From assembly GCA_017427685.1 (NCBI GenBank), contig JAFRSH010000027.1, positions 2,477 to 66,476 on the forward strand: 64,000 nucleotides of DNA, given 5' to 3'. Each line of letters starts with the position of its first letter. The stretch's first letter is position 1. The notes beneath the pieces were generated by a model. The model was not told where the DNA came from, made no database searches, and worked only from the letters and a program-made list of their open reading frames with translations. This DNA comes from Lachnospiraceae bacterium (GTDB lineage Bacteria; Bacillota; Clostridia; Lachnospirales; Lachnospiraceae). Below, in pieces: positions 18,289-60,795 of the stretch. The position numbers and the translations under genes are program-made.

Positions 18289-18331
18289 GCCTGCGCCGGC
18301 AAACACCTTGTCCGCGCAGGCTGTTTACGTT
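18289..18331 (+). terminator. Possible intrinsic terminator after the alarmone synthetase gene
   Basis: GCCTGCGC ... GCGCAGGC stem with a 17-nt loop, followed by TGTTTACGTTT. Confidence 0.4.
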
Positions 18332-18391
18332 TGGGAAAGTTTAATAAATCAGTTTAAGAAGATTAAGGATTGAAAACAGGGGATTGCGTCT

Positions 18392-19896: not shown

Positions 19897-20048
19897 CATA
19901 CGGTTTCTCCTGCCGCGAACCATCTTTCGAGGATACGCTCGCGCTCAGGTCCTCGCGCAGCGGTTCTAACCTCTGACCTACGGTCATCGCTAAGAACCGG
20001 CGTTGCGGATGCTCCCCGAAAGACGCTTCGGGCGCGGAGAAACCTATG
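19897..20048 (+). repeat. Interspersed palindromic repeat, family A, long form (copy A1)
   Basis: About 150 nt. Outer arms CATAcGGTTTCTCCTGCCGCGAA ... TTCGGGCGCGGAGAAACCTATG. The inner module is shared with copies at 21521 and 22737. Confidence 0.85.
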
Positions 20049-20106
20049 CACACTGGGAATAAAACTATTTACAGAGCTAGAATGATTTTGAAAGATTATC
20101 AGAAGT

Positions 20107-20796
20107 ATGAATAATAATGATATAGCGGAAGTAAAGATACCGTCAGAAGAGCTGTTAAACGGAATTAACGCAGTGATATTTGATTTAGATGGCACACTCA
20201 TCGACTCCATGTGGATGTGGAAGCAGATCGATATAGATTATCTGGCCTCAAAGGGAAAGCCTTTCCCACCGAATCTGCAGGACACGATCTCGGGGATGAG
20301 CTTTTCGGAGACGGCGGTGTACTTTAAGGAGACTTTCGGGATCGAGGATGATCTCGATACGATCAAGAAATGTTGGAACGACATGGCGTGGGAGATGTAC
20401 AGCACGCGCGTTACTCTTAAGGAGGGAGCGCTTGAGTTCCTTAAGTACCTCAAGGAGCGCGGGATCAAGACCGGCATCGCGACAAGCAACTCGAATGAGC
20501 TCGCCTTCATGGTTACGAAGCGACTCGGCATCGACGCCTATATCGACGAGATCCACACTGCCTGCGAAGTCGAGAAAGGCAAACCGAGCCCCGATATCTA
20601 CCTCTTTGTAGCCGAGACGCTCGGAGTCGACCCTTCGGAGTGCCTGGTGTTCGAGGATGTGCTCCGCGGAGTCATCGCAGGACTCAGAGCCGGGATGCGT
20701 GTGTGCGCGTTCTATGATCCTGCGAGCGCATATGAGGACGAGGAGAAGAGGGAAGCTGCGAACTGCTACCTTCATTCTTTTAAAGAATTGATATAA
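20107..20796 (+). CDS. HAD-superfamily hydrolase (beta-phosphoglucomutase-like subfamily IA)
   Basis: Motif I FDLDGTLIDS, motif II GIATSN, and a motif III/IV region KGKPSPDIY...FEDVLRG. Confidence 0.8.
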   Translation: MNNNDIAEVKIPSEELLNGINAVIFDLDGTLIDSMWMWKQIDIDYLASKGKPFPPNLQDTISGMSFSETAVYFKETFGIEDDLDTIKKCWNDMAWEMYSTRVTLKEGALEFLKYLKERGIKTGIATSNSNELAFMVTKRLGIDAYIDEIHTACEVEKGKPSPDIYLFVAETLGVDPSECLVFEDVLRGVIAGLRAGMRVCAFYDPASAYEDEEKREAANCYLHSFKELI

Positions 20797-20798
20797 CA

Positions 20799-20860
20799 CA
20801 TACGTTTTCTCCTGCCACGAATCATCTTTCCGGGAGACGCTTCGGGCGCGGAGAAACCTT
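20799..20860 (+). repeat. Family A repeat, short form (copy A2; arms only, inner module absent)
   Basis: CATACGTTTTCTCCTGCCACGAA...CTTCGGGCGCGGAGAAACC matches both ends of A1 but lacks the central ~90 nt. Confidence 0.8.
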
Positions 20861-20886
20861 AATACCTCTTCAAAAAGGAGAATCAC

Positions 20887-21480
20887 ATGGAAAAGAAACA
20901 GAAACTCGTCCCTGCAAAGGGATCACGCGGATATATCGACAGAACAAAGAAACTCGCGATACTTGTTGCAGCGGGCTCATTTATGCTCGCAGCTGCCATG
21001 TTCATCGCGGGCCTGTTCCTGTTTGACAGCAAGTTTAACGTGCTTTCGATATTCGCGGCGCTTATCGTCATCCCGTTCGCGGGTGCGATCACGAGGTTTG
21101 TACTTTTCGCAAAGTACAAGTCTGTGAGCGAAGAGGACGAGAAGAAGGTCTTTGATGCGTCTCCCGCAGGAAGTACGACACTTTCTGATGTGGTATTGAC
21201 ATCGACTGAACGTGCGATGGGACTTGCGTTCGTGGTAATCACGGACAACGAGGTTGCAGCGCTTAAAGCGACCGGAGAGAAACTTCCCGCAGTCAAGCTC
21301 TACGAGTACCTGAAGGACCTTGTGAAGCGCAAGGGCTTCGCTAACTCTGTTGAAGTGGTTGAAGATATGGATAAATTCCTTAAACACCTCGGAACGCTTT
21401 CGGAATCTCCCGCACGTGCCGAAGATGAGGAAGATCCTCAGCAGGAAGTTGTTGAGATGCTGCGAGTTTATATGGCATGA
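20887..21480 (+). CDS. Hypothetical membrane protein (two N-terminal TM helices)
   Basis: Strong RBS (AAGGAG). TM helices LAILVAAGSFMLAAAMFIAGLFLF and VLSIFAALIVIPFAGAI. No recognised domain. Confidence 0.55.
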   Translation: MEKKQKLVPAKGSRGYIDRTKKLAILVAAGSFMLAAAMFIAGLFLFDSKFNVLSIFAALIVIPFAGAITRFVLFAKYKSVSEEDEKKVFDASPAGSTTLSDVVLTSTERAMGLAFVVITDNEVAALKATGEKLPAVKLYEYLKDLVKRKGFANSVEVVEDMDKFLKHLGTLSESPARAEDEEDPQQEVVEMLRVYMA

Positions 21481-21520
21481 TTTGCTACCCGCACGATCAA
21501 CTTTTGAATGATCATTTGTT

Positions 21521-21669
21521 TAAAGGATTATCTGCGCAGAAGCGTTTTCAGAGAGCATCCGCAACGCCGGTTCTTAACGACGACTGAAGGAAGGAGTATA
21601 GAACCGCTGCGTGAGGACCTGAGCGCGAGCGTATCTCTGAAAATGCTTCGTGGCAGGATAATCCGTAAG
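21521..21669 (-). repeat. Family A repeat, long form, inverted orientation (copy A3)
   Basis: Reverse complement aligns with A1 and A4 over the inner module (GCATCCGCAACGCCGGTTCTTA...GAACCGCTGCG). Outer arms changed to GGATTATC / GATAATCC. Confidence 0.85.
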
Positions 21670-21681
21670 AGGACAACACGG

Positions 21682-22704
21682 ATGAAAGCTATTGCTATCG
21701 GTGCTAACGAACACGGTCAGCGTGTCGACAGGCTTGTCGGCAAGCTTATTCCGCGCGCCGAGAAGGGGCTTGTCTATAAAGCGATCAGGAAGAAGATAGT
21801 TACTCTTAACGGCAAGAAGACCCAACCGGACGCAAGAGTTTGTGAGGGTGACGAGCTCAAGCTTTTCTTCAGTGACGACACTCTGCGTGAGCTCGGAGGG
21901 ACAGTCGGCAATGCCGGGGACAAGAGTATTTCGGGACAGACGGCCGGGACTGTTTCGAAAAAGAGCTCAAGCATAAAGGGCTACGAATTTGCCGAAAATA
22001 TCATCTACGAGGACACGGATGTGATCCTTGTCTATAAGCCTGCAGGGATCCTTTCGCAGGGGTCGGACAGCAACGAGGTCTCTCTCAACGATCTTTTGAT
22101 CGATCATCTCAGTCACAGCGGAAAGCTCTCGGGAACCGGGGAAACGTTCAAACCATCGGTATGCAACAGGCTTGACCGCAACACCGCAGGGATAGTTGTC
22201 TGCGGGTGTTCTCTGAAGGGACTCAGGATCATGTCATCCCTGATCCATGACAGAAAGCTTGAAAAGTATTATATGTGCGCGGTCAAAGGGATCATCACCG
22301 AACCCGGTGATCTTAAGGGGTGGCTCCTTAAGGATGAGAAGACCAACAAAGTAAAGATCTTTTCGGATGCGTCCGTACCGGGAGCTTTGAACATCGAAAC
22401 TAGGTACAGGCCGATCGCAAGTGCACATGGCATGACGCTCCTGGAGGTTGAACTGGTTACAGGGCGACCCCACCAGATCAGAGCGCATATGGCGAGTATA
22501 GGGCATCCTGTTGTCGGGGATCCGAAGTACGGGGATGTTGCGTTTAACCGCATGGCGGCGAAAGAGTATGGGATTAAACATCAGATGCTTGTCGCATGGA
22601 AGCTCAGGTTTCCCGAACTCGAAGAACTCAGTGGACTATCAAGTAAAGAATTCACGTGCAACACGCCTGAGTTCGTGAAAAAGATATTTGATCTAAATCT
22701 TTAG
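21682..22704 (+). CDS. RluA-family pseudouridine synthase
   Basis: S4-like N-terminus, catalytic region NRLDRNTAGIVV and HQIRAH. Start moved to ATG 21682 after AAGAGGA, because the first 58 codons of the track ORF translate repeat A3. Confidence 0.85.
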   Translation: MKAIAIGANEHGQRVDRLVGKLIPRAEKGLVYKAIRKKIVTLNGKKTQPDARVCEGDELKLFFSDDTLRELGGTVGNAGDKSISGQTAGTVSKKSSSIKGYEFAENIIYEDTDVILVYKPAGILSQGSDSNEVSLNDLLIDHLSHSGKLSGTGETFKPSVCNRLDRNTAGIVVCGCSLKGLRIMSSLIHDRKLEKYYMCAVKGIITEPGDLKGWLLKDEKTNKVKIFSDASVPGALNIETRYRPIASAHGMTLLEVELVTGRPHQIRAHMASIGHPVVGDPKYGDVAFNRMAAKEYGIKHQMLVAWKLRFPELEELSGLSSKEFTCNTPEFVKKIFDLNL

Positions 22705-22736
22705 TGGAATAATCATATGGAATAGGCATATTGCTG

Positions 22737-22886
22737 CGTACGGCTTCTCCTGCCACGAAACAACTTTCCGGGAGACGCTCTCGCTCTGTCCTCACGCAAC
22801 GGTTCTAAGCTCTGACCTACGGTCATCGCTAAGAACCGGCGTTGCGGATGCTCCCGAAAGTTATTTCGGGCGCGGATAAGCCTATG
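22737..22886 (+). repeat. Family A repeat, long form (copy A4)
   Basis: Same architecture and inner module as A1. Arms GGCTTCTCCTGCCACGAAA / ATTTCGGGCGCGGATAAGCC. Confidence 0.85.
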
Positions 22887-23024: not shown

Positions 23025-26000
23025 ATGAGTTTTTTGCAACACTACGGTAAGAAAAACAGTACAGGGAATCGCTTTATAAGGATGATCGCTGCATTGTTTG
23101 CAGTGGTCTTTGCGTTCACATCGCTTCCTTCGGCGGATGCCTTTGCCGATACGACGTCGAAGGTTATGAATCCCAGATACATTTTCAGGGATGAAACTTC
23201 GGATGCGACAGGAATTCCCGCGTATTATCATAAAGGTGCAAAGTATACAGAGAACAGAACATACATGACCAACACTTTGGGAAATGTTTATATTTTGAAT
23301 GACTACGAAAAGAAGTTATATGATCAGGTCGTTCTTCTGCACATGTATCTCACTGATGCAAACAGAAATCAAAACAGCTTTTTAAGTCAGTTCAATAATG
23401 CATTTAATTCGGGTGATTTTGCGTTTGTGCAGGCCTATCAGGACCGTCATTTTTTCTCGATTGATTCTTCAAGAATGCCCGATGCATATAAGATCCCTTC
23501 TGTAGAGATCATGGTTGAAAAGCCGGGAACTGCAAGTGGGGGTGCAGTGTCGTATTATACAGAAAGTGAACTGAGAAGTCTTGAGGGCTCGTCCACTGTT
23601 CTTAGTGATGCTATAAGCAGTCAGTTTATTAATTTCGGAAGAGTAATGGAGGCTCTCTTTGTTGACCTTCCCGATCTTTTCTGGTGGGATAAAACCTGTG
23701 TGGCTTGGAATTACAGTTATAACAATGGCTCGAACGGAGGCATTGTTATAAGTGGCATTAATGTCTATCTTGCAAGTCAGCTTCTTAATTCAGGGGGATG
23801 CTATACGAAAGATACGATCCCTCAGACAATGAATTCAATAAACGCTTTTGCTGACAGAGTTATCTCTGAAGTAGCATCGAAAGGTTTCTGGGAAACTGTT
23901 AAGGGCGGTGAAGAAGCTGTTGTGACAGAAGTACCCGGTGTATTGTCGGATTATGACAAGTTGGTGGGCACAGCACTCATGCTTGAAAAACTGATCAAGT
24001 ATGATACCGCTTGCCTGGCTGCAGGAGGGGATGTTAACAGAGCAAAGCATTCGTCTCTCGGAATTGACTGTGTCGCACAGTATAGCGGATGGGGAACTCA
24101 TCTCTATGATTCGTCAGATGTGCTCGAGGCAGTTTGTGAAGGCTACGCCGAAATATATAAGTATATCTGTGACAGAACCCGATTCTACAACGATGTAAAG
24201 ATGGGAATTGAGATCGGTTACGTTGAAAACAAAAACTTAGAAACCGGTGTAACAACGTACGGAAGACATGAATGGAACATTGCAACAATAGAAGATGCTT
24301 CTTATGTGATCGATCTTACAAATGACGATTTCAATTGGTTACGCACTGATTTGAATTCATCTGTCAGCGATGCTGAAAGATATAAGTATAAGAATGCGCT
24401 CTTACTGAAAGGCAAAAAATCTTTTGATGCTTTTGATCAGAATACACAACCTGAAGAGGGAAAAGGTTATTACATTCAGTATAGCTATAAAGATTCAGAT
24501 GGCGTTACACACAAAATAACTCCGATACCGTTCTATTTGTTTGAGGGAACGACTATTAATATTAGTAATGACTTGCTTCCGCTCGTTACCGAAGCAGTGG
24601 GCTACGAACCTTCGTATAGCGGAGATTTTATAAAATGTCTTTCCGGGAAATATTACCCGATATTGCAAATAAAGGACAGCAATAACTATTGGGATAACGA
24701 TTCTTTGTTTGACAACATAAACAGCGTCCCTCAGATCATATATAAGGATGGGGAGTCTATAAACAGGGGGCTTTATATTGGTATTCAGACCGGATATGGA
24801 TCCACTTATGAAACCTGTTATGAATACGAACTGATCAAAGTGGATGAGTTTGCAGACGGAGTTATTCCGCCTCAGAATGGGACTGTTGTAAAAAGCGGAA
24901 CCTTTACAGATGTTGGGTATCACCCCATGGATGTGAACTTTGGTGATCCTCATGATCTGGCTCCCGGAAACTATACAATTTACGTTGTTGTAAATACTTG
25001 GTCTGGCTACAGTTATCCATTGAAAGGACAGAGCTTTACTGTCCTTCCTGCAACTCTGACTCCTTCTGTTGTTATTAAGAACGGAGCAAATAAGGTTACC
25101 ATAGCGCCGAGTGAGATCACATCTGACCTGAAGGATCGTTTTGAGATCAAGCTTGCAGGAGTTGCTTCGGGAGATACGGTGACTGCAGAGATCACCAATC
25201 TGGAGCTCACAAATGTGGTTGATCCGACAACCACAGCCGAGGGTTCGGCAGGTGTCAAGGCGACATTCAGACTGACAGGTACACACGCACAGAACTACGT
25301 GCTTGCGAACAATAATACAACCACTGTTACGCTTGATAATGCCATAACTATTTCTAAGAAACAGCAGGCTACCAATCCCGAGCAGGGCGGAACCACAGAA
25401 GGTGGCGGAACCTCAGGTGGTGGAACTGTAGGAGGAGGCACCGTAGGCGGTGAAACCACAGGAGGTGAAACTGTAGGTGGTGGAACCGAAGGTGGTGGAA
25501 CCGTAGGCGGAGGAACCTCAGGCGGTGGAACTGTAGGAGGCGGAACCGTAGGTGGAGGAACCTCAGGCGGTGGAACTGTAGGAGGCGGAACCGTAGGTGG
25601 AGGAACCTCAGACGGTGGAACTGTAGGAGGCGGATCTGTAGGAGGTGGAACCTCAGGAGGCGGAGGAGTCTCAGGAGGTGGAGCAGTCTCAGGCGGAGGT
25701 GGAGCAATCTCCGGTGGTGGAGGAGCAATCTCCGGAGGAGGAGCAACTTCAGGTGGCACCGACTCGACCAAGAAGGATGATGAAACTGCCGACGAGAAGA
25801 AAGAAGATAAAGCATCGGACGACAAAAAGGACGATAAGGCGTCGGACGATAAAAAAGACGACAAAAAAGAAGATGACGGAACCGTGGTGGTTGAAAACGA
25901 GGACGGATCGGTCACAACCACAAATATAAGCGTTAACAAGAAGGGCTCGGTGATCGTTGAGTCGGTTACCGAAAACACCGACGGCTCAACAGTCGAAACG

Positions 26001-32335: not shown

Positions 32336-32423
32336 CATACGGCTCTCCCTGCCACATGTATTGTTCCAAAAACGCTGACGCTTTAATTGTTTTTGGAACA
32401 ACACATGGTCGCGGTCGAGCCTG
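32336..32423 (+). repeat. Interspersed palindromic repeat, family B (copy B1)
   Basis: CATACGGCTCTCCCTGCCACATGT-ATTGTTCCAAAAAC...GTTTTTGGAACAAC-ACATGGTCGCGGTCGAGCC. Near-identical to the copy at 33283. The termini resemble the family A arms. Confidence 0.85.
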
Positions 32424-32438
32424 TTAAAGTGACCTACC

Positions 32439-32510
32439 AGGGTGCCTGGTATTGTTAAAAAGATGTTAGGAACGAAGTTCTTAACAGGTTTTTAACAGTA
32501 CCTGGCTCCC
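32439..32510. repeat. Long imperfect palindrome, family C (copy C1)
   Basis: AGGGTGCCTGGTATTGTTAAAAAGATGTTAGG...CTTAACAGGTTTTTAACAGTACCTGGCTCCC. Homologous to the copies at 43301 and 44439. Confidence 0.8.
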
Positions 32511-32557
32511 GGTAAAAGAAAAATGTAAAAAGAAAAAGAGTAATAAGGAATTAAGCT

Positions 32558-33282: not shown

Positions 33283-33369
33283 TTTCGGCTCTCCCTGCCA
33301 CATGTGTTGTTCCAAAAACGCTTACGCTTAAATTGTTTTTGGAACAACACATGGTCGCGGTCGAGCCTG
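33283..33369 (+). repeat. Family B repeat (copy B2)
   Basis: Direct repeat of B1, with only a few mismatches by eye. Confidence 0.85.
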
Positions 33370-33385
33370 ATCACAGTATACAAAA

Positions 33386-33406
33386 GGGTGCCAGTACCTG
33401 GCTCCC
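33386..33406. repeat. Family C remnant (both outer ends, interior deleted)
   Basis: GGGTGCC-AGTACCTGGCTCCC equals the first 7 and last 14 nt of C1. Confidence 0.6.
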
Positions 33407-33433
33407 GATAGAAGGAAAAAAAGGAGTAATTAC

Positions 33434-43300: not shown

Positions 43301-43398
43301 GGGAACCAGGTACTGTTACAGTTACGAGGGTACCAGGTATTGTTACAAAGATGTTAGGGTCGAAGACCTTAACAGGTTTGTAACAGTACCTGGTTCCC
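43301..43398. repeat. Family C palindromic repeat (copy C3, with an extra duplicated left arm)
   Basis: GGGAACCAGGTACTGTTACA-gttacga-GGGTACCAGGTATTGTTACAAAGATGTTAGGGTCGAAGACCTTAACAGGTTTGTAACAGTACCTGGTTCCC. Confidence 0.85.
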
Positions 43399-43422
43399 GT
43401 ATTAAGTAAGGAGGGGTCAGAT

Positions 43423-44430: not shown

Positions 44431-44438
44431 CACTTTAT

Positions 44439-44509
44439 GGGAACCAGGTACTGTTACAAACCTGTTAAGGTCTTTGACCCTAACATCTTTGTAACAATAC
44501 CTGGTACCC
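44439..44509. repeat. Family C palindromic repeat (copy C4, inverted relative to C3)
   Basis: Equals the reverse complement of 43328-43398 with one mismatch by eye. Confidence 0.85.
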
Positions 44510-44600
44510 TGTTGGTGACTTCATCATGCACTTGTAAAAACCCTGAAAGTTTAATAAAATGAAAAGAAGGGGTTAAAGAACTTATGTAAGAGGTGGTTTT

Positions 44601-45878: not shown

Positions 45879-48104
45879 ATGAGCGAGAAGCCTACCGCGT
45901 ACAAAGGAGACGAAAAGTACATTTTTGTAAGCTACGCCCACAAGGACAGCGCTGACGTGATGCCTCTCATCGAGGCTCTGCAGAGCGCTTCATACCGCGT
46001 GTGGTATGACGAGGGGATCGAACCCGGCAACGACTGGGCAGGCGTGATCGGTAACAACCTTGAGAAGGCTGCAATCGTGCTTTTCTGCGCGTCCAAGACA
46101 TCGGTCAAGCGTGACAACGTGCTGCGCGAGATCGCATTTGCCGGAGAACATGATGTGCCCGTCCTCACGGTGACGATCGGAAACGTTGCGTTCCCGGCCG
46201 AGCTCGAGAGGATGCTCATGGTCAATCAGACCGTTTCGCTCAGGACTTTTAAGACATACGGCGATTTCGTGAATGCGATCTCAGGCGTGCTGAAGAAGGC
46301 CGGGACCTACGCAGGAGCAGCAGAGGGCAGCTCCGTAACGGAAGTTAAGGAAGCTTCCGCTGTGGCTACGGGCGGGGCACTCGATAAGAAGATCATGCTT
46401 GGAAGCAGGATGAAGCGTAACAAGCTGATCCTCAGACTGCTCATCGTACTCGCTGTTCTGGCGGCACTTGCGGCAGCGACCTTCTTCGTGGCTTTCAAGG
46501 ATGTACCCGACGTTATCGACATGGATGCGGACGAGGCGCGCGCACTGATCGAAGAAGCCGGTTTTGATTGTGATATCAGTAACGATTACTCTGATACATA
46601 TCCGTTCGGAAAGGTATTCGCGCAGAGCAGGAGCGGTATGAACTTCCGCTTTGTGCCCGTCCTTATCAGGCAGAGCCTCGGACCCGAGGAGAACCTGACG
46701 GATGTTCCGGACACTGTAACGCACCATATAAGCGAAGCGGCGTCGATGCTGATCACCGCCGGCATGAAGAAGTTTGAGATCTCACCCGTGCTCGGTACGG
46801 GCAGAGAGAACGCGCATGTCGATGCGCAGAGCATCCCTGCGGGACTCAGGGTTTCGAGAAACAACGTGATAGACCTTGATGTGGCAACGGACGGCGGCGA
46901 AATCATCTTTGAGATCGCGGGCAAGTACTACGTGATCCGCGGTACGCAGCCTGTAGTTGTCGATGCGGACGATACGAGCAATCTTGAGGAAGTGAAGCCC
47001 GCGGAGGATCCGAACCCGGCTCCCGACAGGAGCACGACCCCTGATGATACCACAGGCTCAATTTCGGGCGGTGATGTCGCAGCGGTCACAGAGGATGAAG
47101 GCGCGGCAGAAGAAGATACGGCCGATACAGAAGATACAGCAGACGCAGGCGATGAAACACCCGAGGGACGGGACGTTGCAGGCGTGACAGATGCTGAAGC
47201 GGAAGAACCTGAAGTCGAAGAAGTACCCGAGCCTACACCTGTTCCGGCACCTACGGCTACGCCTGTTCCCGAACCCACACCGGTACCTACACCGACGCCG
47301 GCACCCACAGCGACACCCGTTCCCACGGCGACGCCTGTTCCCACGGCAACACCTTCGCCCACACCCACACCGAAGCCTACAGCGACACCCACTCCGACTC
47401 CGGAAACGGCGAAGTACAACAGCCTCGGCGGGAACAAGTGGGAGGTTTATAATCAGGCGGCCATGCAGGAGATCCATGATATGCCCATGACTGCAGAGGA
47501 AGCCCGGTCGTACGGTGACGAATGGTTCGAAGGAGAGCACGCCAACGACACATACAGCACTAACATGAAGATCATGGATGACTTTACGATCAACACGGAT
47601 CTGGGAGGGCTTTGGACTGTCGAAGTTCCTTCGGGAAGGACGCTCACCATTGGTAAGGGCGGAAGGCTTCAGGCATGTGTGACGGTACAGAAGGGCGCCA
47701 AGATCGTGGTTGAATCGGGTGGCAAGCTCTGGTGTACGCAGGGCGGCGAGGAGTGCATCATGAACTACGGCACCGTCGATGTCAAATCGGGCGGCCAGAT
47801 CCAGAGTATGTTCGGAGGAACCTTCAACAACCTTTCGGGCGCGACACTCAACCTGAACGGAACCTTTAACTGCGGATCCGTTATGCATAACGTGACTCCC
47901 GACGGCTCGATGGCCCGTGCTGTATGGTTCGTGAACAAGGGAACCGTTAAGGGCAGTGGAAAAGCAACTATCTTCGGAGCTTTCCTCGGAAATTATACCG
48001 ATGAGGAGATAGATGAATTCTTTAACTGGGCTGAGGAACAGCTCGCTGAAAGGCTCGGAAACAGCAGTATCACGACGAGTCAGAACAGGGATTATGATCC
48101 GTAA
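45879..48104 (+). CDS. TIR-domain membrane protein with PASTA-like repeats, Pro/Thr linker and a C-terminal beta-rich module
   Basis: TIR_2-type N-terminus KYIFVSYAHKDSADVMPLIEALQSASYRVWYDE...IVLFCASKTSVKRDNVLREIAFA. KRNK, then TM LILRLLIVLAVLAALAAATFFVAF. Two PASTA-like units (VPDVIDMDADEARALIEEAGF..., VPDTVTHHISEAASMLITAGM...). A (T/P)-rich linker. The C-terminal ~200 aa resemble the end of ORF 52184..56305. Confidence 0.8.
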   Translation: MSEKPTAYKGDEKYIFVSYAHKDSADVMPLIEALQSASYRVWYDEGIEPGNDWAGVIGNNLEKAAIVLFCASKTSVKRDNVLREIAFAGEHDVPVLTVTIGNVAFPAELERMLMVNQTVSLRTFKTYGDFVNAISGVLKKAGTYAGAAEGSSVTEVKEASAVATGGALDKKIMLGSRMKRNKLILRLLIVLAVLAALAAATFFVAFKDVPDVIDMDADEARALIEEAGFDCDISNDYSDTYPFGKVFAQSRSGMNFRFVPVLIRQSLGPEENLTDVPDTVTHHISEAASMLITAGMKKFEISPVLGTGRENAHVDAQSIPAGLRVSRNNVIDLDVATDGGEIIFEIAGKYYVIRGTQPVVVDADDTSNLEEVKPAEDPNPAPDRSTTPDDTTGSISGGDVAAVTEDEGAAEEDTADTEDTADAGDETPEGRDVAGVTDAEAEEPEVEEVPEPTPVPAPTATPVPEPTPVPTPTPAPTATPVPTATPVPTATPSPTPTPKPTATPTPTPETAKYNSLGGNKWEVYNQAAMQEIHDMPMTAEEARSYGDEWFEGEHANDTYSTNMKIMDDFTINTDLGGLWTVEVPSGRTLTIGKGGRLQACVTVQKGAKIVVESGGKLWCTQGGEECIMNYGTVDVKSGGQIQSMFGGTFNNLSGATLNLNGTFNCGSVMHNVTPDGSMARAVWFVNKGTVKGSGKATIFGAFLGNYTDEEIDEFFNWAEEQLAERLGNSSITTSQNRDYDP

Positions 48105-48136: not shown

Positions 48137-49030
48137 ATGATGAGAAGAAGAACAATCGTTTTTTCGATTTTGGTTGGTATAATGGCTGCATGCCTGCTTA
48201 TGGGATGCAAATCAGGGACAAAGCTTGAAAACATAGCCTTTGATAAAGAAAAGAACAGTTACACATGTGAGTATGATGGCTTAAAACGAGAGTTTATCGT
48301 AAGTCTGCCCGAGACGGCGAAGAATGCTCCGCTTGTTGTCATGCTTCACGGGTCCGGGGATGCCGCAGACAACTTCAGACAAACCTCTGAGTTCGACAAA
48401 GATGCGAATGAAAAGGGCTATGCTGTCTGCTTTATCAACGGAACGGTCAATGTTAAGGCCGGAAGAAACTCATGCAGTTGGAACTACGGAAGGATCGAAC
48501 CCGATAATGATGACGTATCGTTTATAAAAGAAGTGGTAAAGTACGTCTGCGATGAGTACTCGCTCGACGATGATGATGTTTACTGCGCGGGATTCTCGAA
48601 CGGAGGCTACATGAACTTCAGACTTGCACTCGAGGCCCAGGACGTCTTCAAGGGCTGTGTCAGTGTCGGAGGAGATCTCTGCAAGACCCTTTGGAACAAA
48701 AAGCCCGAAAAGAATGATGTGAGTCTCATGGCTGTATACGGCGAAAAGGACGAGATAGTTCCGAAGAACCTTGACGGATCGGCAAAGAGCGCACTCGATC
48801 CGGCGATAGAAGATGTGCTTGAGTATCTCGCATCGTCAAACGGACTCGCCAAGCAATCGGAGGGCGAGATCGGAAGCGGTTCGACCATATATAAATACGG
48901 TGCGGACGGAGACAGCGATGCCATTTGGGGTGTGCTTGTAAAGGACGGCAAGCACGGATGGCCGACGCAGGAGTCTAATGGTTTCAGTGTGAATCAGTTG
49001 ATACTTGAGTTCTTTTCAAGCATCAAGTGA
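48137..49030 (+). CDS. Lipoprotein esterase, PHB-depolymerase/feruloyl-esterase (COG3509-like) family
   Basis: Lipobox LLMGC, VVMLHGSGD, nucleophile elbow GFSNGG. Confidence 0.75.
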   Translation: MMRRRTIVFSILVGIMAACLLMGCKSGTKLENIAFDKEKNSYTCEYDGLKREFIVSLPETAKNAPLVVMLHGSGDAADNFRQTSEFDKDANEKGYAVCFINGTVNVKAGRNSCSWNYGRIEPDNDDVSFIKEVVKYVCDEYSLDDDDVYCAGFSNGGYMNFRLALEAQDVFKGCVSVGGDLCKTLWNKKPEKNDVSLMAVYGEKDEIVPKNLDGSAKSALDPAIEDVLEYLASSNGLAKQSEGEIGSGSTIYKYGADGDSDAIWGVLVKDGKHGWPTQESNGFSVNQLILEFFSSIK

Positions 49031-49085
49031 TCCCAAAACGCTGTCGTCTAATTGTTTTTTGGAAAACACACGGGCGCGGAAAAGC
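49031..49085 (+). repeat. Family B repeat, partial (copy B3; the left outer arm overlaps or is replaced by the esterase 3' end)
   Basis: TCCCAAAACGCTGTCGTCTAATTGTTTTTTGGAAAACACACGGGCGCGGAAAAGC matches the inner stem and right arm of B1 and B4. Confidence 0.65.
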
Positions 49086-50985: not shown

Positions 50986-51876
50986 ATGAAGAAAATAATT
51001 TATTTAACGCTTATGCTGATCGGGCTTATGGCTGCCTGCATTCTTACGGGATGTTCGTCGTCGGGGCCCAAGCTTGAGAATGTTGAGCTTGATAAGGGTA
51101 ACAAGTACAATTGCACGTTTGAGGATGTTAAGCATGATTTCGTAATCAGCCTTCCCGAGCAGACCAAGAACGCACCTCTCATCGTGATGCTTCACGGAGC
51201 TTCGGATTCTGCTGAGAACTTCAGACTCACGAGCCGTTTTGATGAAGATGCGCTTCCTAAGGGTTACGCAGTTTGCTACGCAACCGGAACCGTTAATGTG
51301 AAGGCCGGAAGAAGTGAGAAGAGCTGGAACTACGGAAGAATGGATCCTGATTACAATGATGTAGGATTTATCAAGGCGCTCGTTAACTACCTTGTTGATG
51401 AGTACTCACTCGACGAAGACCGCGTGTTCTGCGCAGGCTTCTCGAATGGAGGATTCATGAACTTCAGACTCGCGCTTGAGGCACAGGATACATTCCAGGC
51501 ATGCGTGAGCGTCGGTGGAGATCTTTGCAAGACACTTTGGAACAAGAAACCTGAAAAGAACGATGTCGGAATGCTTGCTATCATCGGAGAGATCGATGAG
51601 TCCGTTCCGAAGAACTTCGACGGAACAGCAAAGACTGCTCTTGATCCCGCTATTGAGGATGTACTTGATTACATGGCTTCATCAAACGGCCTTGAGCTTC
51701 AGTCCGAAGCTGAGATCGGAGAAGGTTCGACGATCCGCAAGTATGGTGCTGACGGCGATGAGGACATGGTTTGGGGCGTAGTAGTAAAGGGAGCTAAGCA
51801 TGGATGGCCGACGGAGGAGCTTAACAAGATCAGTGCGAATAAACTCATCCTTGATTTCTTCGAGAATTGGAAATAG
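50986..51876 (+). CDS. Lipoprotein esterase, paralog of 48137..49030
   Basis: Lipobox ILTGC, IVMLHGASD, GFSNGG. Collinear with the first esterase; most positions are identical by eye. Confidence 0.75.
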   Translation: MKKIIYLTLMLIGLMAACILTGCSSSGPKLENVELDKGNKYNCTFEDVKHDFVISLPEQTKNAPLIVMLHGASDSAENFRLTSRFDEDALPKGYAVCYATGTVNVKAGRSEKSWNYGRMDPDYNDVGFIKALVNYLVDEYSLDEDRVFCAGFSNGGFMNFRLALEAQDTFQACVSVGGDLCKTLWNKKPEKNDVGMLAIIGEIDESVPKNFDGTAKTALDPAIEDVLDYMASSNGLELQSEAEIGEGSTIRKYGADGDEDMVWGVVVKGAKHGWPTEELNKISANKLILDFFENWK

Positions 51877-60708: not shown

Positions 60709-60795
60709 CTTACGGCTCCTCCTGCCACGTAGTCTTTCCGGAAAACGGCTTCGCCTTTAATTGTTTTCCGAAAAGACCACGGGCGCGGAGGAGCC
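60709..60795 (+). repeat. Family B repeat (copy B4)
   Basis: CTTACGGCTCCTCCTGCCACG-TAGTCTTTCCGGAAAAC...GTTTTCCGAAAAGACCA-CGGGCGCGGAGGAGCC. Confidence 0.8.

What the first reader, a model, noticed from the sequence alone, without database searches (positions are those of the whole stretch)
19897..22886. Dense cluster of a long nested-palindrome repeat (family A/B superfamily) with compensatory changes in the outer stem
- **Local density:** Four copies separate five consecutive genes within 3 kb. They are A1 19897-20048 (+), A2 20799-20860 (+, short), A3 21521-21669 (inverted) and A4 22737-22886 (+).
- **Related copies elsewhere:** Family B copies share the same termini but have a different inner hairpin. 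They sit at 32336-32423, 33283-33369, 49031-49085 (partial) and 60709-60795.
- **Consensus ends:** (C)ATAC-GG(Y)T(Y)(Y)TCC-TGCC(R)CG ... CGGGCGCGG-(R)(R)A(R)(R)CC-TATG, forming a stem of more than 20 bp with 1-nt bulges.
- **Compensatory substitutions:** The outer 9 bp differ between copies in a paired way. The arm pairs are GGTTTCTCC/GGAGAAACC (A1), GGATTATCC/GATAATCC (A3) and GGCTCCTCC/GGAGGAGCC (B4). That argues for selection on the hairpin rather than on the sequence.
- **Strand hint:** A T-G pair inside the stem would be a U-G wobble only on the strand co-oriented with the flanking genes (A1, A2, A4, B copies). This hints at an RNA-level role.
- **Modularity:** The short A2 is the two arms without the ~90-nt inner module, so the elements are modular, like nested MITE/REP/BOX-type repeats.
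- **What is absent:** None carries an ORF, a transposase or a clear U-tract.
Basis: seen in the sequence. Interest (0 to 1): 0.7.

Follow-up and report, generated by a model that had tools for sequence, protein, structure and literature searches.

The report
Bulged-hairpin intergenic repeat family, rumen Lachnospiraceae
The flagged sequences are real copies of an undescribed family of long hairpin-forming repeats that sit between housekeeping genes of an uncultured rumen Lachnospiraceae bacterium; they resemble the REP, BOX and Correia repeats of other bacteria, so this is a new family of a familiar kind, not a new kind of system.

Summary
The window has seven complete copies and one truncated copy of one repeat family, all intergenic, four of them within 3 kb.

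**Architecture.** Every copy has an A-T pair, a bulged C, a 9-bp outer stem, a second bulged C, a 4-bp stem with an invariant T·G, a bulged purine and an 18-bp variable stem. The apex is either a ~20-nt loop motif (B) or a ~75-nt rod-like module (A).

**Evidence.**
- Pairing is strongly maintained: 90% of cells are paired against 73% in shuffles, and 19 of 32 pairs show double changes.
- There is no Rfam, phage, plasmid or literature match.
- The family is confined to a small clade. A relative with the same gene order has empty sites, and other metagenome contigs carry copies at unrelated loci.
- 11 of 13 independent loci are co-oriented with the upstream gene.
- Orthologous copies diverge about three times more slowly than four-fold degenerate sites.

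- The wobble-based strand hint fails.
- A2 is a deletion derivative, not a module-free form.
- Mirror-image indels in both arms show that templated arm-to-arm correction can produce the "compensatory" changes without selection.

**Best reading.** This is a REP/MITE-like repeat with a protein-recognised hairpin base that is co-transcribed as an mRNA 3' hairpin. The mobilising enzyme and any RNA role are untested.

The parts
19897..20048 (+). A1, a full-length A-type element. CATAC flank; outer stem 19902-19910 pairs with 20036-20044. It lies 21 nt after the RsmF-like stop (19876) and 59 nt before the HAD start (20107).
   Evidence: (48.2 bits on +)
20799..20860 (+). A2, an internally deleted A-type element. 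It keeps the 5' arm through GGGAGACGCT and then joins directly to TCGGGCGCGGAGAAACC. It begins 3 nt after the HAD stop.
   Evidence: 37.1 bits; a full-length element sits at the same site in L260/L261
21521..21669 (-). A3, an A-type element inverted relative to the flanking genes. It is the most degenerate copy: a 1-nt deletion in the 3' arm and a C·A in the outer stem. In the sister strain it is reduced to a 22-nt hairpin.
   Evidence: I1, I4; 36.2 bits on -
22737..22886 (+). A4, a full-length A-type element downstream of the RluA-family gene. Its inner module is 96% identical to that of A1, while the third stem differs.
   Evidence: D11; 49.3 bits
32336..32423 (+). B1, a B-type element 7 nt after the hisB (IGPD) stop. 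It is followed by a family-C palindrome at 32435-32511.
   Evidence: (102 bits)
33283..33369 (+). B2, a B-type element 9 nt after the hisA stop and 96% identical to B1. It is followed by a short family-C remnant.
   Evidence: D6; 101 bits
49031..49085 (+). B3, a 5'-truncated B-type copy. It keeps the apical loop, the 3' half of stem 3 and the 3' arm, and abuts the esterase stop codon (49030).
   Evidence: arm3 hit only; 18.3 bits
60709..60795 (+). B4, a B-type element with a perfect outer stem, between the MCP gene and a radical-SAM gene.
   Evidence: L154 is the same locus; 98.6 bits

Best explanation
**What it is.** This is a lineage-specific family of non-autonomous, REP/MITE-like palindromic repeats in a clade of uncultured rumen Lachnospiraceae.

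**Anatomy.** Each copy is one long irregular hairpin.
- The base is conserved in sequence and in its irregularities: TAC flank, bulged C, 9-bp stem, bulged C, and a TGCC/GGCG stem with an invariant T·G and a bulged purine.
- The middle is an 18-bp helix that is free in sequence but fixed in length.
- The apex starts with ACGCTnnCGC and is either a small loop (B) or a ~75-nt rod-like module (A).

**Shown.**
- Copies occur at non-orthologous intergenic sites in several related organisms.
- Copies are absent from the same sites in a relative.
- Copies undergo internal deletion.
- Copies are mostly co-oriented with, and close behind, the upstream gene.

**Inferred.**
- The invariant bulges and T·G at the base, and probably the apex motif, are recognition features for a trans-acting protein that copies or maintains the element.
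- The helix between them is kept paired partly by templated arm-to-arm correction and partly by selection.
- Because the elements lie inside operons in sense orientation, they are transcribed. They then form very stable 3' hairpins on the upstream cistron that protect or process the mRNA, as shown for REP, ERIC and Correia elements elsewhere.
- The slower-than-synonymous divergence of orthologous copies suggests the host now depends on, or at least constrains, them.
For: - **Repeat family and significance:**
- **Hairpin and covariation:**
  - 13 of 33 pairs show double changes among 6 B copies.
  - among 14 copies, 90.0% of cells are paired against 73.4 +/- 1.2% in shuffles. 19 of 32 pairs show double changes, and slid controls give 36-51%.
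- **Invariant irregularities:** C3, T13·G61 and C62 are invariant, and column 17 is always a purine, in 14 of 14 copies.
- **Asymmetry:** the covariance model scores about 100 bits on one strand and about 45 bits on the other.
- **Dispersal:**
  - Copies lie beside flagellar, HprK/glucokinase and phosphatase genes on other metagenome contigs.
  - The A1, A2 and A4 sites are empty in the syntenic locus L256.
  - No copies were found in L232 or L257.
- **Deletion dynamics:**
- **Orientation:** 11 of 13 loci are co-oriented, binomial two-sided p = 0.022. One convergent spacer in L157 has one copy behind each gene.
- **Position:** 3-41 nt after the upstream stop codon in the window copies.
- **In-situ constraint:** B1+B2 diverge 1.7-2.9% against 6.8-7.1% at four-fold sites of the flanking genes, Fisher p = 0.004-0.04.
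- **Not already known:** no Rfam match, no phage or plasmid match, and no paper found.
Against: - **No mobilising enzyme was found.** The window, its flanks and all related loci carry no transposase, RAYT or integrase. The whole genome could not be searched.
- **No target-site duplication or exact insertion boundary could be defined.** No within-species presence/absence polymorphism of a complete element was seen; only deletions within elements.
- **No transcript data.**
- **Wobble statistics and folding energies do not favour the sense RNA**.
- **The orientation bias rests on 13 loci.** It is confounded with replication direction, except for the single L157 pair.
- **The conservation test rests on 175 sites** and on strain pairs that are not independent.
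Confidence: 0.55

Rival explanations
1. The element is a purely DNA-level substrate of a single-strand HUH/Y1 enzyme, of the RAYT or IS200/IS605 TnpA type. That enzyme would recognise the bulged hairpin and the adjacent TAC on the lagging-strand template. The orientation bias would then reflect replication direction, because most genes in Firmicutes are co-directional with replication. Any RNA hairpin would be incidental.
For: - A conserved trinucleotide lies immediately 5' of an imperfect hairpin that carries invariant extrahelical bases and a mismatch. These are the kinds of features that give strand and site specificity to IS608-type TnpA and RAYTs (established knowledge).
- The element is strongly strand-asymmetric.
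- There is no sense-strand wobble signal.
- Tandem reiterations of the element's 5' end occur in L157 (16-nt unit, three times) and L159 (42-nt unit, three times).
- Group 1 RAYTs occur in Clostridia (PMC5581495).
Against: - No Y1 transposase was seen in about 84 kb of this genome or in any related locus.
- The flank is TAC, not the GTAG of REPs, and the hairpins are 2-5 times longer than REPs.
- The L157 convergent spacer has two copies in opposite orientation, each behind its own gene. That fits transcription better than replication.
- Orthologous copies are conserved in situ, which a dead selfish copy would not be.
Confidence: 0.2
2. The element is a host cis-acting structured RNA motif, for example a ribonuclease processing or stability determinant or a protein-binding element in operon mRNAs. 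It would be selected at each locus, and mobility would be irrelevant or long past.
For: - Copies are co-oriented with genes and lie just after stop codons inside his and rRNA-modification operons.
- The helical spacer between the two conserved motifs has a fixed length.
- Covariation is strong.
- Orthologous copies evolve more slowly than four-fold sites.
- The one inverted window copy (A3) is the most decayed and is nearly deleted in the sister strain.
Against: - Syntenic relatives do without it at the same sites.
- The flanking genes have no common function.
- Near-identical copies (B1/B2 96%; A1/A4 modules 96%) indicate recent copying.
- The sense strand carries more A·C than G·U and folds less well than the antisense strand.
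- Mirror-image indels point to DNA-level arm correction.
Confidence: 0.15
3. The elements are U-tract-poor intrinsic terminators or attenuators that have been copied around the genome.
For: - They are very stable hairpins with a GC-rich base placed 3-41 nt after stop codons.
- Copies lie behind both genes of a convergent pair in L157.
- Some copies are followed by T-rich runs: B4 CCTTTTGTG, and L157 CCTATTTTGTG.
Against: - There is no consistent U-tract: A1 is followed by TATGCACAC, A2 by TTAATACC and B1 by TGTTAAAG.
- The terminator scan does not call any element as a whole.
- Several copies sit inside operons whose downstream genes need read-through (hisB-hisA-hisF).
- A genuine terminator-like hairpin with a T-run nearby (18298-18334) looks quite different.
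Confidence: 0.07
4. The elements are attC-like recombination sites separating gene cassettes of an integron-like array.
For: - Imperfect palindromes with extrahelical bases, conserved ends and a variable centre of very different lengths separate consecutive co-oriented genes.
Against: - The ends do not match RYYYAAC...GTTRRRY. Here the polarity is reversed (GGTTTCTCC...GGAGAAACC), and the GTT is not conserved in A3, A4, B1, B2 or B4.
- There is no integrase.
- The genes are housekeeping genes (the his operon, rsmF, rluA) and keep the same order in relatives that lack the elements.
Confidence: 0.02

Closest known systems
REP/BIME elements of Enterobacteria and Pseudomonas, with their RAYT transposases
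   Same: - Extragenic imperfect palindromes at roughly one per 8 kb, often inside operons just after stop codons.
- A conserved short motif immediately 5' of the hairpin.
- Occasional inverted pairs (L159).
- A known role for REPs as 3' mRNA stabilisers.
   Different: - These are 60-300 nt long, not 20-40 nt.
- The flank is TAC, not GTAG.
- They have a three-tier architecture with invariant bulges and a fixed 18-bp variable helix.
- No RAYT was identified.
- The host is a Lachnospiraceae.
Correia elements (NEMIS) of Neisseria
   Same: - About 100-155 nt, with long and internally deleted short forms.
- Long terminal inverted repeats that fold into a hairpin in co-transcribed mRNA.
- Lineage-specific expansion.
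   Different: - Correia elements have 26-bp TIRs, a TA target duplication, an IHF site and promoter elements. None of these is seen here.
- There is no sequence similarity.
ERIC/IRU and the pneumococcal BOX, RUP and SPRITE repeats
   Same: - Modular, highly structured intergenic repeats with insertion and deletion variants.
- They are transcribed with neighbouring genes.
- ERIC has orientation-dependent effects on mRNA stability.
   Different: - BOX is a linear A-B-C module array, not a nested hairpin.
- RUP has an IS630-related origin.
- No sequence or covariance-model similarity was found.
Subterminal hairpins of IS200/IS605 elements and their miniature derivatives (PATEs)
   Same: - Imperfect hairpins with extrahelical bases and mismatches that confer strand specificity.
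- The cleavage or target motif lies 5' of the hairpin (TTAC for IS608, compared with NTAC here).
   Different: - Those hairpins are about 20 nt long and occur as two different ends of one element.
- Here a single long hairpin is the whole element, and no tnpA or tnpB is nearby.
Integron attC sites
   Same: - Conserved paired ends with extrahelical bases.
- A highly variable central structure, from a small loop to a branched module.
- Placement between co-oriented genes.
   Different: - The core-site consensus is absent.
- There is no integrase.
- The flanking genes are core operon genes with conserved order.

Membership tests
REP / REPtron (RAYT-associated) | Short (about 20-40 nt) extragenic imperfect palindrome present in many copies | tested here: inconclusive
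   The copies are extragenic, palindromic and multicopy (8 per 64 kb). They are 60-150 nt long, and 296 nt in L258, which is well outside the REP range.
REP / REPtron (RAYT-associated) | Conserved GTAG tetranucleotide 5' of the palindrome | tested here: not met
   The flank is (C/G)(A/T)TAC followed by a bulged C within the paired region. No GTAG is present on either strand in that position.
REP / REPtron (RAYT-associated) | A cognate RAYT (Y1 transposase) gene flanked by the repeats | tested here: inconclusive
   None is present in the window, in 10 kb beyond its right end, or in any related locus (Pfam lists). The rest of the genome could not be read.
MITE (DDE-transposon derived) | Terminal inverted repeats flanked by a direct target-site duplication | tested here: not met
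   The arms are inverted repeats, but the bases outside them (ACGG...CCT) continue the palindrome. No direct duplication is seen in any of 14 copies.
MITE (DDE-transposon derived) | A full-length IS with the same termini | tested here: inconclusive
   None is present in the sequence available. The metagenome scan for both arms at 22-52 nt spacing gave only short elements. Longer spacings were not scanned.
Integron attC | R''/R' core sites RYYYAAC ... GTTRRRY, plus a nearby tyrosine-recombinase integrase | tested here: not met
   The ends are GGNTYNTCC...GGANRANCC. No integrase is present, and the flanking genes are core operons with conserved order.
Intrinsic terminator | GC-rich hairpin immediately followed by a U-tract | tested here: not met
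   The hairpin is present. The 3' flanks are TATGCAC, TTAATAC, TGTTAAA and the like, with only partial T runs in B4 and L157.
Any Rfam 15 family | A covariance-model score at or above the gathering threshold | tested here: not met
   There are 0 hits at gathering thresholds over the whole window. At E<=10 there are only sub-threshold hits: an unrelated sRNA hit (16 bits against a 48-bit gathering threshold) within the HAD gene, not on any element, and generic hairpin (miRNA-precursor-type) hits of 25-27 bits against gathering scores of 58-140.

The most novel reading that the evidence does not exclude
**The reading.** These Lachnospiraceae carry a set of hairpin elements that grow by insertion into the loops of existing hairpins. 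The arms are then made complementary by fold-back or templated copying. This would be a mode of spread that leaves inverted, not direct, duplications of the target.

**Within this reading.** The A/B base, with its invariant bulges and T·G, and the apex motif, held 18 bp apart, would be the two contact sites of a dedicated and so far unknown protein.

**Hints.**
- The sister strain has a 150-nt family-E module inside the loop of what in the window is a simple relA terminator-like hairpin. An 11-nt inverted copy of the loop sequence lies on the far side of the module.
- Two E copies share the module but have unrelated complementary arms.
- An A-like element is nested inside another palindrome in L258.
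- Mirror-image indels occur in both arms.
- Several deletion or short forms retain the 5' half of the inner stem as their loop.
Probability: 0.12. Interest if true: 0.75.

Novelty: new member of a known kind. Interest (0 to 1): 0.4.

Why it matters
Structured intergenic repeats are well studied in Proteobacteria, Neisseria and pneumococci. They are almost undescribed in Lachnospiraceae, which dominate gut and rumen communities and are known largely from metagenome-assembled genomes.

- **For assembly and annotation.** A dense family of 60-300-nt hairpins inside core operons matters for assembly and binning, because repeats break contigs. It also inflates ORF calls: several RluA and RecU calls in related loci run into these elements.
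- **For RNA biology.** The elements are candidates for post-transcriptional control of operons such as his.
- **For mechanism.** The family combines invariant bulges, a fixed-length free-sequence helix, a swappable apex, in-situ conservation and mirror-image indels. This makes it a clean natural case for separating selection on structure from templated quasipalindrome correction.
- **For follow-up.** The invariant features give a defined bait for finding the protein that recognises the element.

Tried and rejected
1. **Genome-collection scan.** The pattern TACGGNNNNTCCTGCCRCG was too loose. No whole-genome copy count and no taxonomic survey of isolate genomes could be made.
2. **Metagenome scan with both arms.** It returned 100 loci, of which only 7 (5 distinct) were real. 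A-type spacings were not covered.
3. **Viral contig scans and BLAST against phages and plasmids.** Nothing real was found.
4. **Rfam.** Nothing.
5. **Literature.** No description of this element was found. Sequence-string hits were unrelated primers.
6. **Integron attC idea.** Rejected on core-site consensus, gene content and synteny.
7. **K-turn or L7Ae-type site at the bulged base.** Rejected by inspection, because there are no tandem G·A pairs.
8. **Guide-like role for the variable stem.** Neither stem half has any match elsewhere in the window at up to 2 mismatches.
10. **Extending 10 kb to the right of the window.** No further copies.
11. **Polarising the family-E insertion against a deletion using outgroups.** The outgroup spacers are unrelated, so this was inconclusive.


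Full report
**1. The observation**

- The 5'-arm consensus, searched with up to three mismatches, gives six hits against 0.05 expected from shuffles.
- Profile searches with each arm find seven complete copies and one copy with only the 3' arm (B3), and nothing else in 64 kb.
- All copies are intergenic.
- Each copy folds far better than dinucleotide shuffles, with z from -3.9 to -9.8.
- No tRNA, no Rfam family at gathering thresholds or at E<=10, and no consistent terminator or promoter signal coincides with the copies.

**2. Organism and context**

Window proteins are annotated in public records as coming from uncultured Lachnospiraceae MAGs. The same locus occurs on a 549-kb scaffold from a ruminant gut metagenome.

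The flanking genes are housekeeping genes, nearly all on one strand:
- rsmF-like | HAD | hypothetical 197 aa | rluA-family | LRR protein | recU;
- hisZ-G-D-B | hisA | hisF/IE;
- an esterase, and an MCP gene followed by a radical-SAM gene.

No transposase, integrase or reverse transcriptase is present in the window, in 10 kb beyond its right end, or in any related locus examined.

**3. Anatomy**

I aligned the two arms of 14 distinct copies. The alignment shows one common architecture.
- An A-T pair and a bulged C come first.
- A 9-bp outer stem follows, GGNTYNTCC / GGANRANCC.
- A bulged C lies on the 3' side.
- A 4-bp stem TGCC/GGCG follows, whose first pair is T·G in all 14 copies.
- A bulged purine lies on the 5' side.
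- An 18-bp helix follows, beginning CG/CG. It is ungapped in every copy but very variable in sequence.
- The apex begins ACGCTnnCGC.
  - In B copies the apex is a loop of about 20 nt (ACGCTGACGCTTTAATTG).
  - In A copies it continues as a rod-like module of about 75 nt with internal loops.
  - In a related species it is larger still, giving a 296-nt element.

A and B are therefore one family that differs at the apex.

The element is clearly asymmetric. A covariance model built from six B copies scores about 100 bits on one strand and about 45 bits on the other.

**4. Covariation and what it means**

Pairing statistics:
- On the 14-copy alignment, 90.0% of cells form standard pairs against 73.4 +/- 1.2% after shuffling partners.
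- 19 of 32 pairs show double changes.
- Sliding the partner by 1-3 columns drops pairing to 36-51%.
- Among six B copies from four organisms, 13 of 33 pairs show double changes.

The hairpin is therefore maintained.

*The strand hint fails.*
- Apart from the one invariant T·G, the gene-sense strand has 9 G·T cells but 17 A·C cells. A·C cells would be G·U on the other strand.
- The antisense strand is the more stable fold in every copy tested.

*Some changes are mirror-image indels.*
- The L258 copy lacks 3 nt at matching positions of both outer arms.
- The second L157 copy lacks 1 nt on both arms.
- Paired indels are not expected from independent mutation plus selection.
- They are the expected outcome of templated correction of one arm from the other. 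This is quasipalindrome template switching, an established mutational mechanism.

Complementarity alone therefore does not show selection on an RNA.

The same process should erase bulges and mismatches. Yet the two bulged C's, the bulged purine and the T·G survive in 14 of 14 copies. That is the better argument that specific features of the base are under selection, most simply as a recognition site.

**5. Distribution and dynamics**

*Other organisms.*
- A metagenome scan requiring both conserved arm cores returned 100 loci. Only seven were real, five of them distinct.
- The covariance model then found second copies in two of those loci.
- These copies lie at unrelated places: between flagellar rod genes and a helicase gene (L140), after hprK (L159), and in a convergent spacer between a phosphopantetheinyl-transferase-like gene and a phosphatase gene (L157).

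*Relatives in the clade with shared synteny.*
- A species with 73% RluA identity and identical gene order has spacers of 42, 65 and 65 nt at the A1, A2 and A4 sites, with no element.
- Two others have no copy in about 20 kb each.
- One has a long, sense-oriented A-like element at the rluA-upstream site, where the window has the inverted A3.

*A sister strain (90% or more protein identity).*
- It has a full-length A element where the window has the short A2.
- It has only a 22-nt outer-stem hairpin where the window has A3.
- It has an unrelated palindromic element where the window has A1.
- A4 is conserved.

*What A2 is.* A2 is therefore a deletion derivative. Its junction, GGGAGACGCT|TCGGGCG, lies at a GACGCT hexamer that flanks the missing segment on both sides in A1-type copies. 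Deletion through that microhomology is an inference from sequence.

*Elsewhere.* Nothing was found in viral contigs, phages or plasmids.

The family is thus lineage-restricted, occupies different sites in different genomes, and is gained, lost and trimmed. This is the behaviour of a dispersed repeat, not of a fixed regulatory site.

**6. Orientation and position**

- Of 13 independent loci, 11 have the element in the sense orientation of the gene immediately upstream. The exceptions are A3 and the second L159 copy. Binomial two-sided p = 0.022.
- In the window the elements start 3-41 nt after the upstream stop codon. They are usually farther from the next start codon.
- Most genes here are co-directional, so this bias could follow replication as well as transcription.
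- The one informative case is the L157 convergent spacer. It holds two copies in opposite orientation, each behind its own gene. That favours transcription, but it is a single case.

**7. Constraint in place**

- Between the window and three other strains, orthologous B1 and B2 differ at 1.7-2.9% of 175 sites.
- Four-fold degenerate sites of the flanking his, prt, rimP and nusA genes differ at 6.8-7.1% of 842-1009 sites. Fisher p = 0.004-0.04, but the strain pairs are not independent.
- Within A copies the inner module is nearly invariant while the 18-bp helix differs at about a third of positions.
- Orthologous A1 copies in two strains differ in a block that matches another copy. This suggests exchange between copies.

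These results suggest that established copies are not decaying neutrally. The sample is small.

**8. Mechanism**

*Shown.* This is a dispersed, strand-asymmetric, strongly paired hairpin family. It has an invariant irregular base, is gained and lost between lineages, lies preferentially in sense orientation just after genes, and is conserved in place.

*Inferred.*
- The base, and probably the apex held one fixed helix length away, is bound by a protein that copies or maintains the element.
- The helix is kept paired by arm-to-arm correction and by selection.
- As part of operon transcripts, the element forms a very stable 3' hairpin on the upstream cistron and modulates decay or processing. 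REP, ERIC and Correia elements do this in other bacteria (background knowledge; reviews PMC10969869 and PMC2229807 were found but not read in detail).

I put about 0.55 on this composite. Most of the remainder goes to a purely ssDNA-transposase substrate (0.2) or a purely host RNA motif (0.15). Terminator and attC readings are unlikely.

**9. Comparison with known families**

- It works like REP/BIME, Correia, ERIC and BOX-type repeats.
- It is not a member of any of them: GTAG is absent, the length is 2-5 times that of a REP, there is no target duplication, and there is no sequence or covariance-model similarity.
- It fails the defining attC core-site test.
- Group 1 RAYTs are reported in Clostridia (PMC5581495). 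A RAYT-like partner is therefore plausible but untested.

**10. Verdict**

This is a real feature and an undescribed family of a known kind. Interest is moderate at 0.4. It is a well-defined, testable example in an under-studied and ecologically important group, and it has unusual regularities: a fixed-length free helix, invariant bulges and mirror-image indels. Nothing found so far places it outside the REP/MITE-like class.

The most novel reading still open is loop-targeted nesting with inverted duplication of the target. It is hinted at by the family-E insertion in the relA terminator-like hairpin, and I give it about 0.12.

Noticed in passing
window 32435-32511, 33392-33419, 43323-43399, 44434-44510: A second, unrelated nested-palindrome family ('C'): GGGTGCCTGGTATTGTTAAAAAGATGTTAGGAACGAAGTTCTTAACAGGTTTTTAACAGTACCTGGCTCCCG. 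It directly follows B1 and, as a 22-nt remnant, B2. It also flanks the FAD-synthetase gene as an inverted pair. Among strains it shows length variants of about 16, 22, 40 and 77 nt at the same sites.
   Followed up: partly
window 18298-18334, compared with L260 6966-7225 and 8757-9088: The relA-rsmF spacer of the window holds a simple terminator-like hairpin (GCCTGCGC C GGCAA ACACC TTGTC C GCGCAGGC, then TGTTTACGTTT). In a sister strain a 150-nt module ('family E') sits inside that hairpin's loop, and an 11-nt inverted copy of the loop sequence lies on the far side of the module. A second E copy has the same module but unrelated complementary arms. I could not decide between insertion with inverted duplication and asymmetric deletion.
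   Followed up: partly
L258 195-600: An A-like element of 296 nt is nested exactly inside another perfect palindrome: GGTGGTCCCTTGGGGACGGGGGTTGTGGGTCACAT ... ATGTGACCCACAACCCCCGTCCCCAAGGGACC. The right arm of that palindrome is the conserved rluA leader. The left arm is also repeated once more in tandem.
   Followed up: no
L157 11735-11795 and L159 10755-10890: The 5' end of the element is reiterated in tandem next to a complete copy. In L157 the unit is 16 nt (CATACGGGGTATCCTT), repeated three times. In L159 the unit is 42 nt, repeated three times, and contains the TAC flank and the start of the outer stem.
   Followed up: no
L256 9742-10001 and L157 11985-12105: A further family of very stable nested palindromes (about -124 kcal/mol over 258 nt) is shared, in opposite orientations, by two different organisms. 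In L256 it occupies the rluA-upstream spacer, where the window has A3.
   Followed up: no
window 21508-21681; related loci L257, L258, L261: The longest ORF for the RluA-family gene starts at 21508 and runs through A3. Gene callers in related assemblies likewise extend RluA (370-426 aa against 340 aa) and RecU (199 aa against 177 aa) into these repeats. The likely true RluA start is 21682.
   Followed up: partly
window 25380-25709 and 47250-47411: Two coding tandem repeats. One has a 15-nt period and lies in the LRR_5 surface-protein gene, whose length varies between strains (1145-1176 aa). The other has an 18-nt Pro/Thr-rich period and lies in a protein that combines a TIR_2 domain with a PASTA domain (45879-48104).
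   Followed up: no
window 48137-49030 and 50986-51876: Two paralogous esterase genes (about 73% DNA identity) lie 2.8 kb apart. The first ends exactly where the truncated B3 copy begins. It is also called as 286 aa rather than 297 aa on another assembly of the same species.
   Followed up: partly
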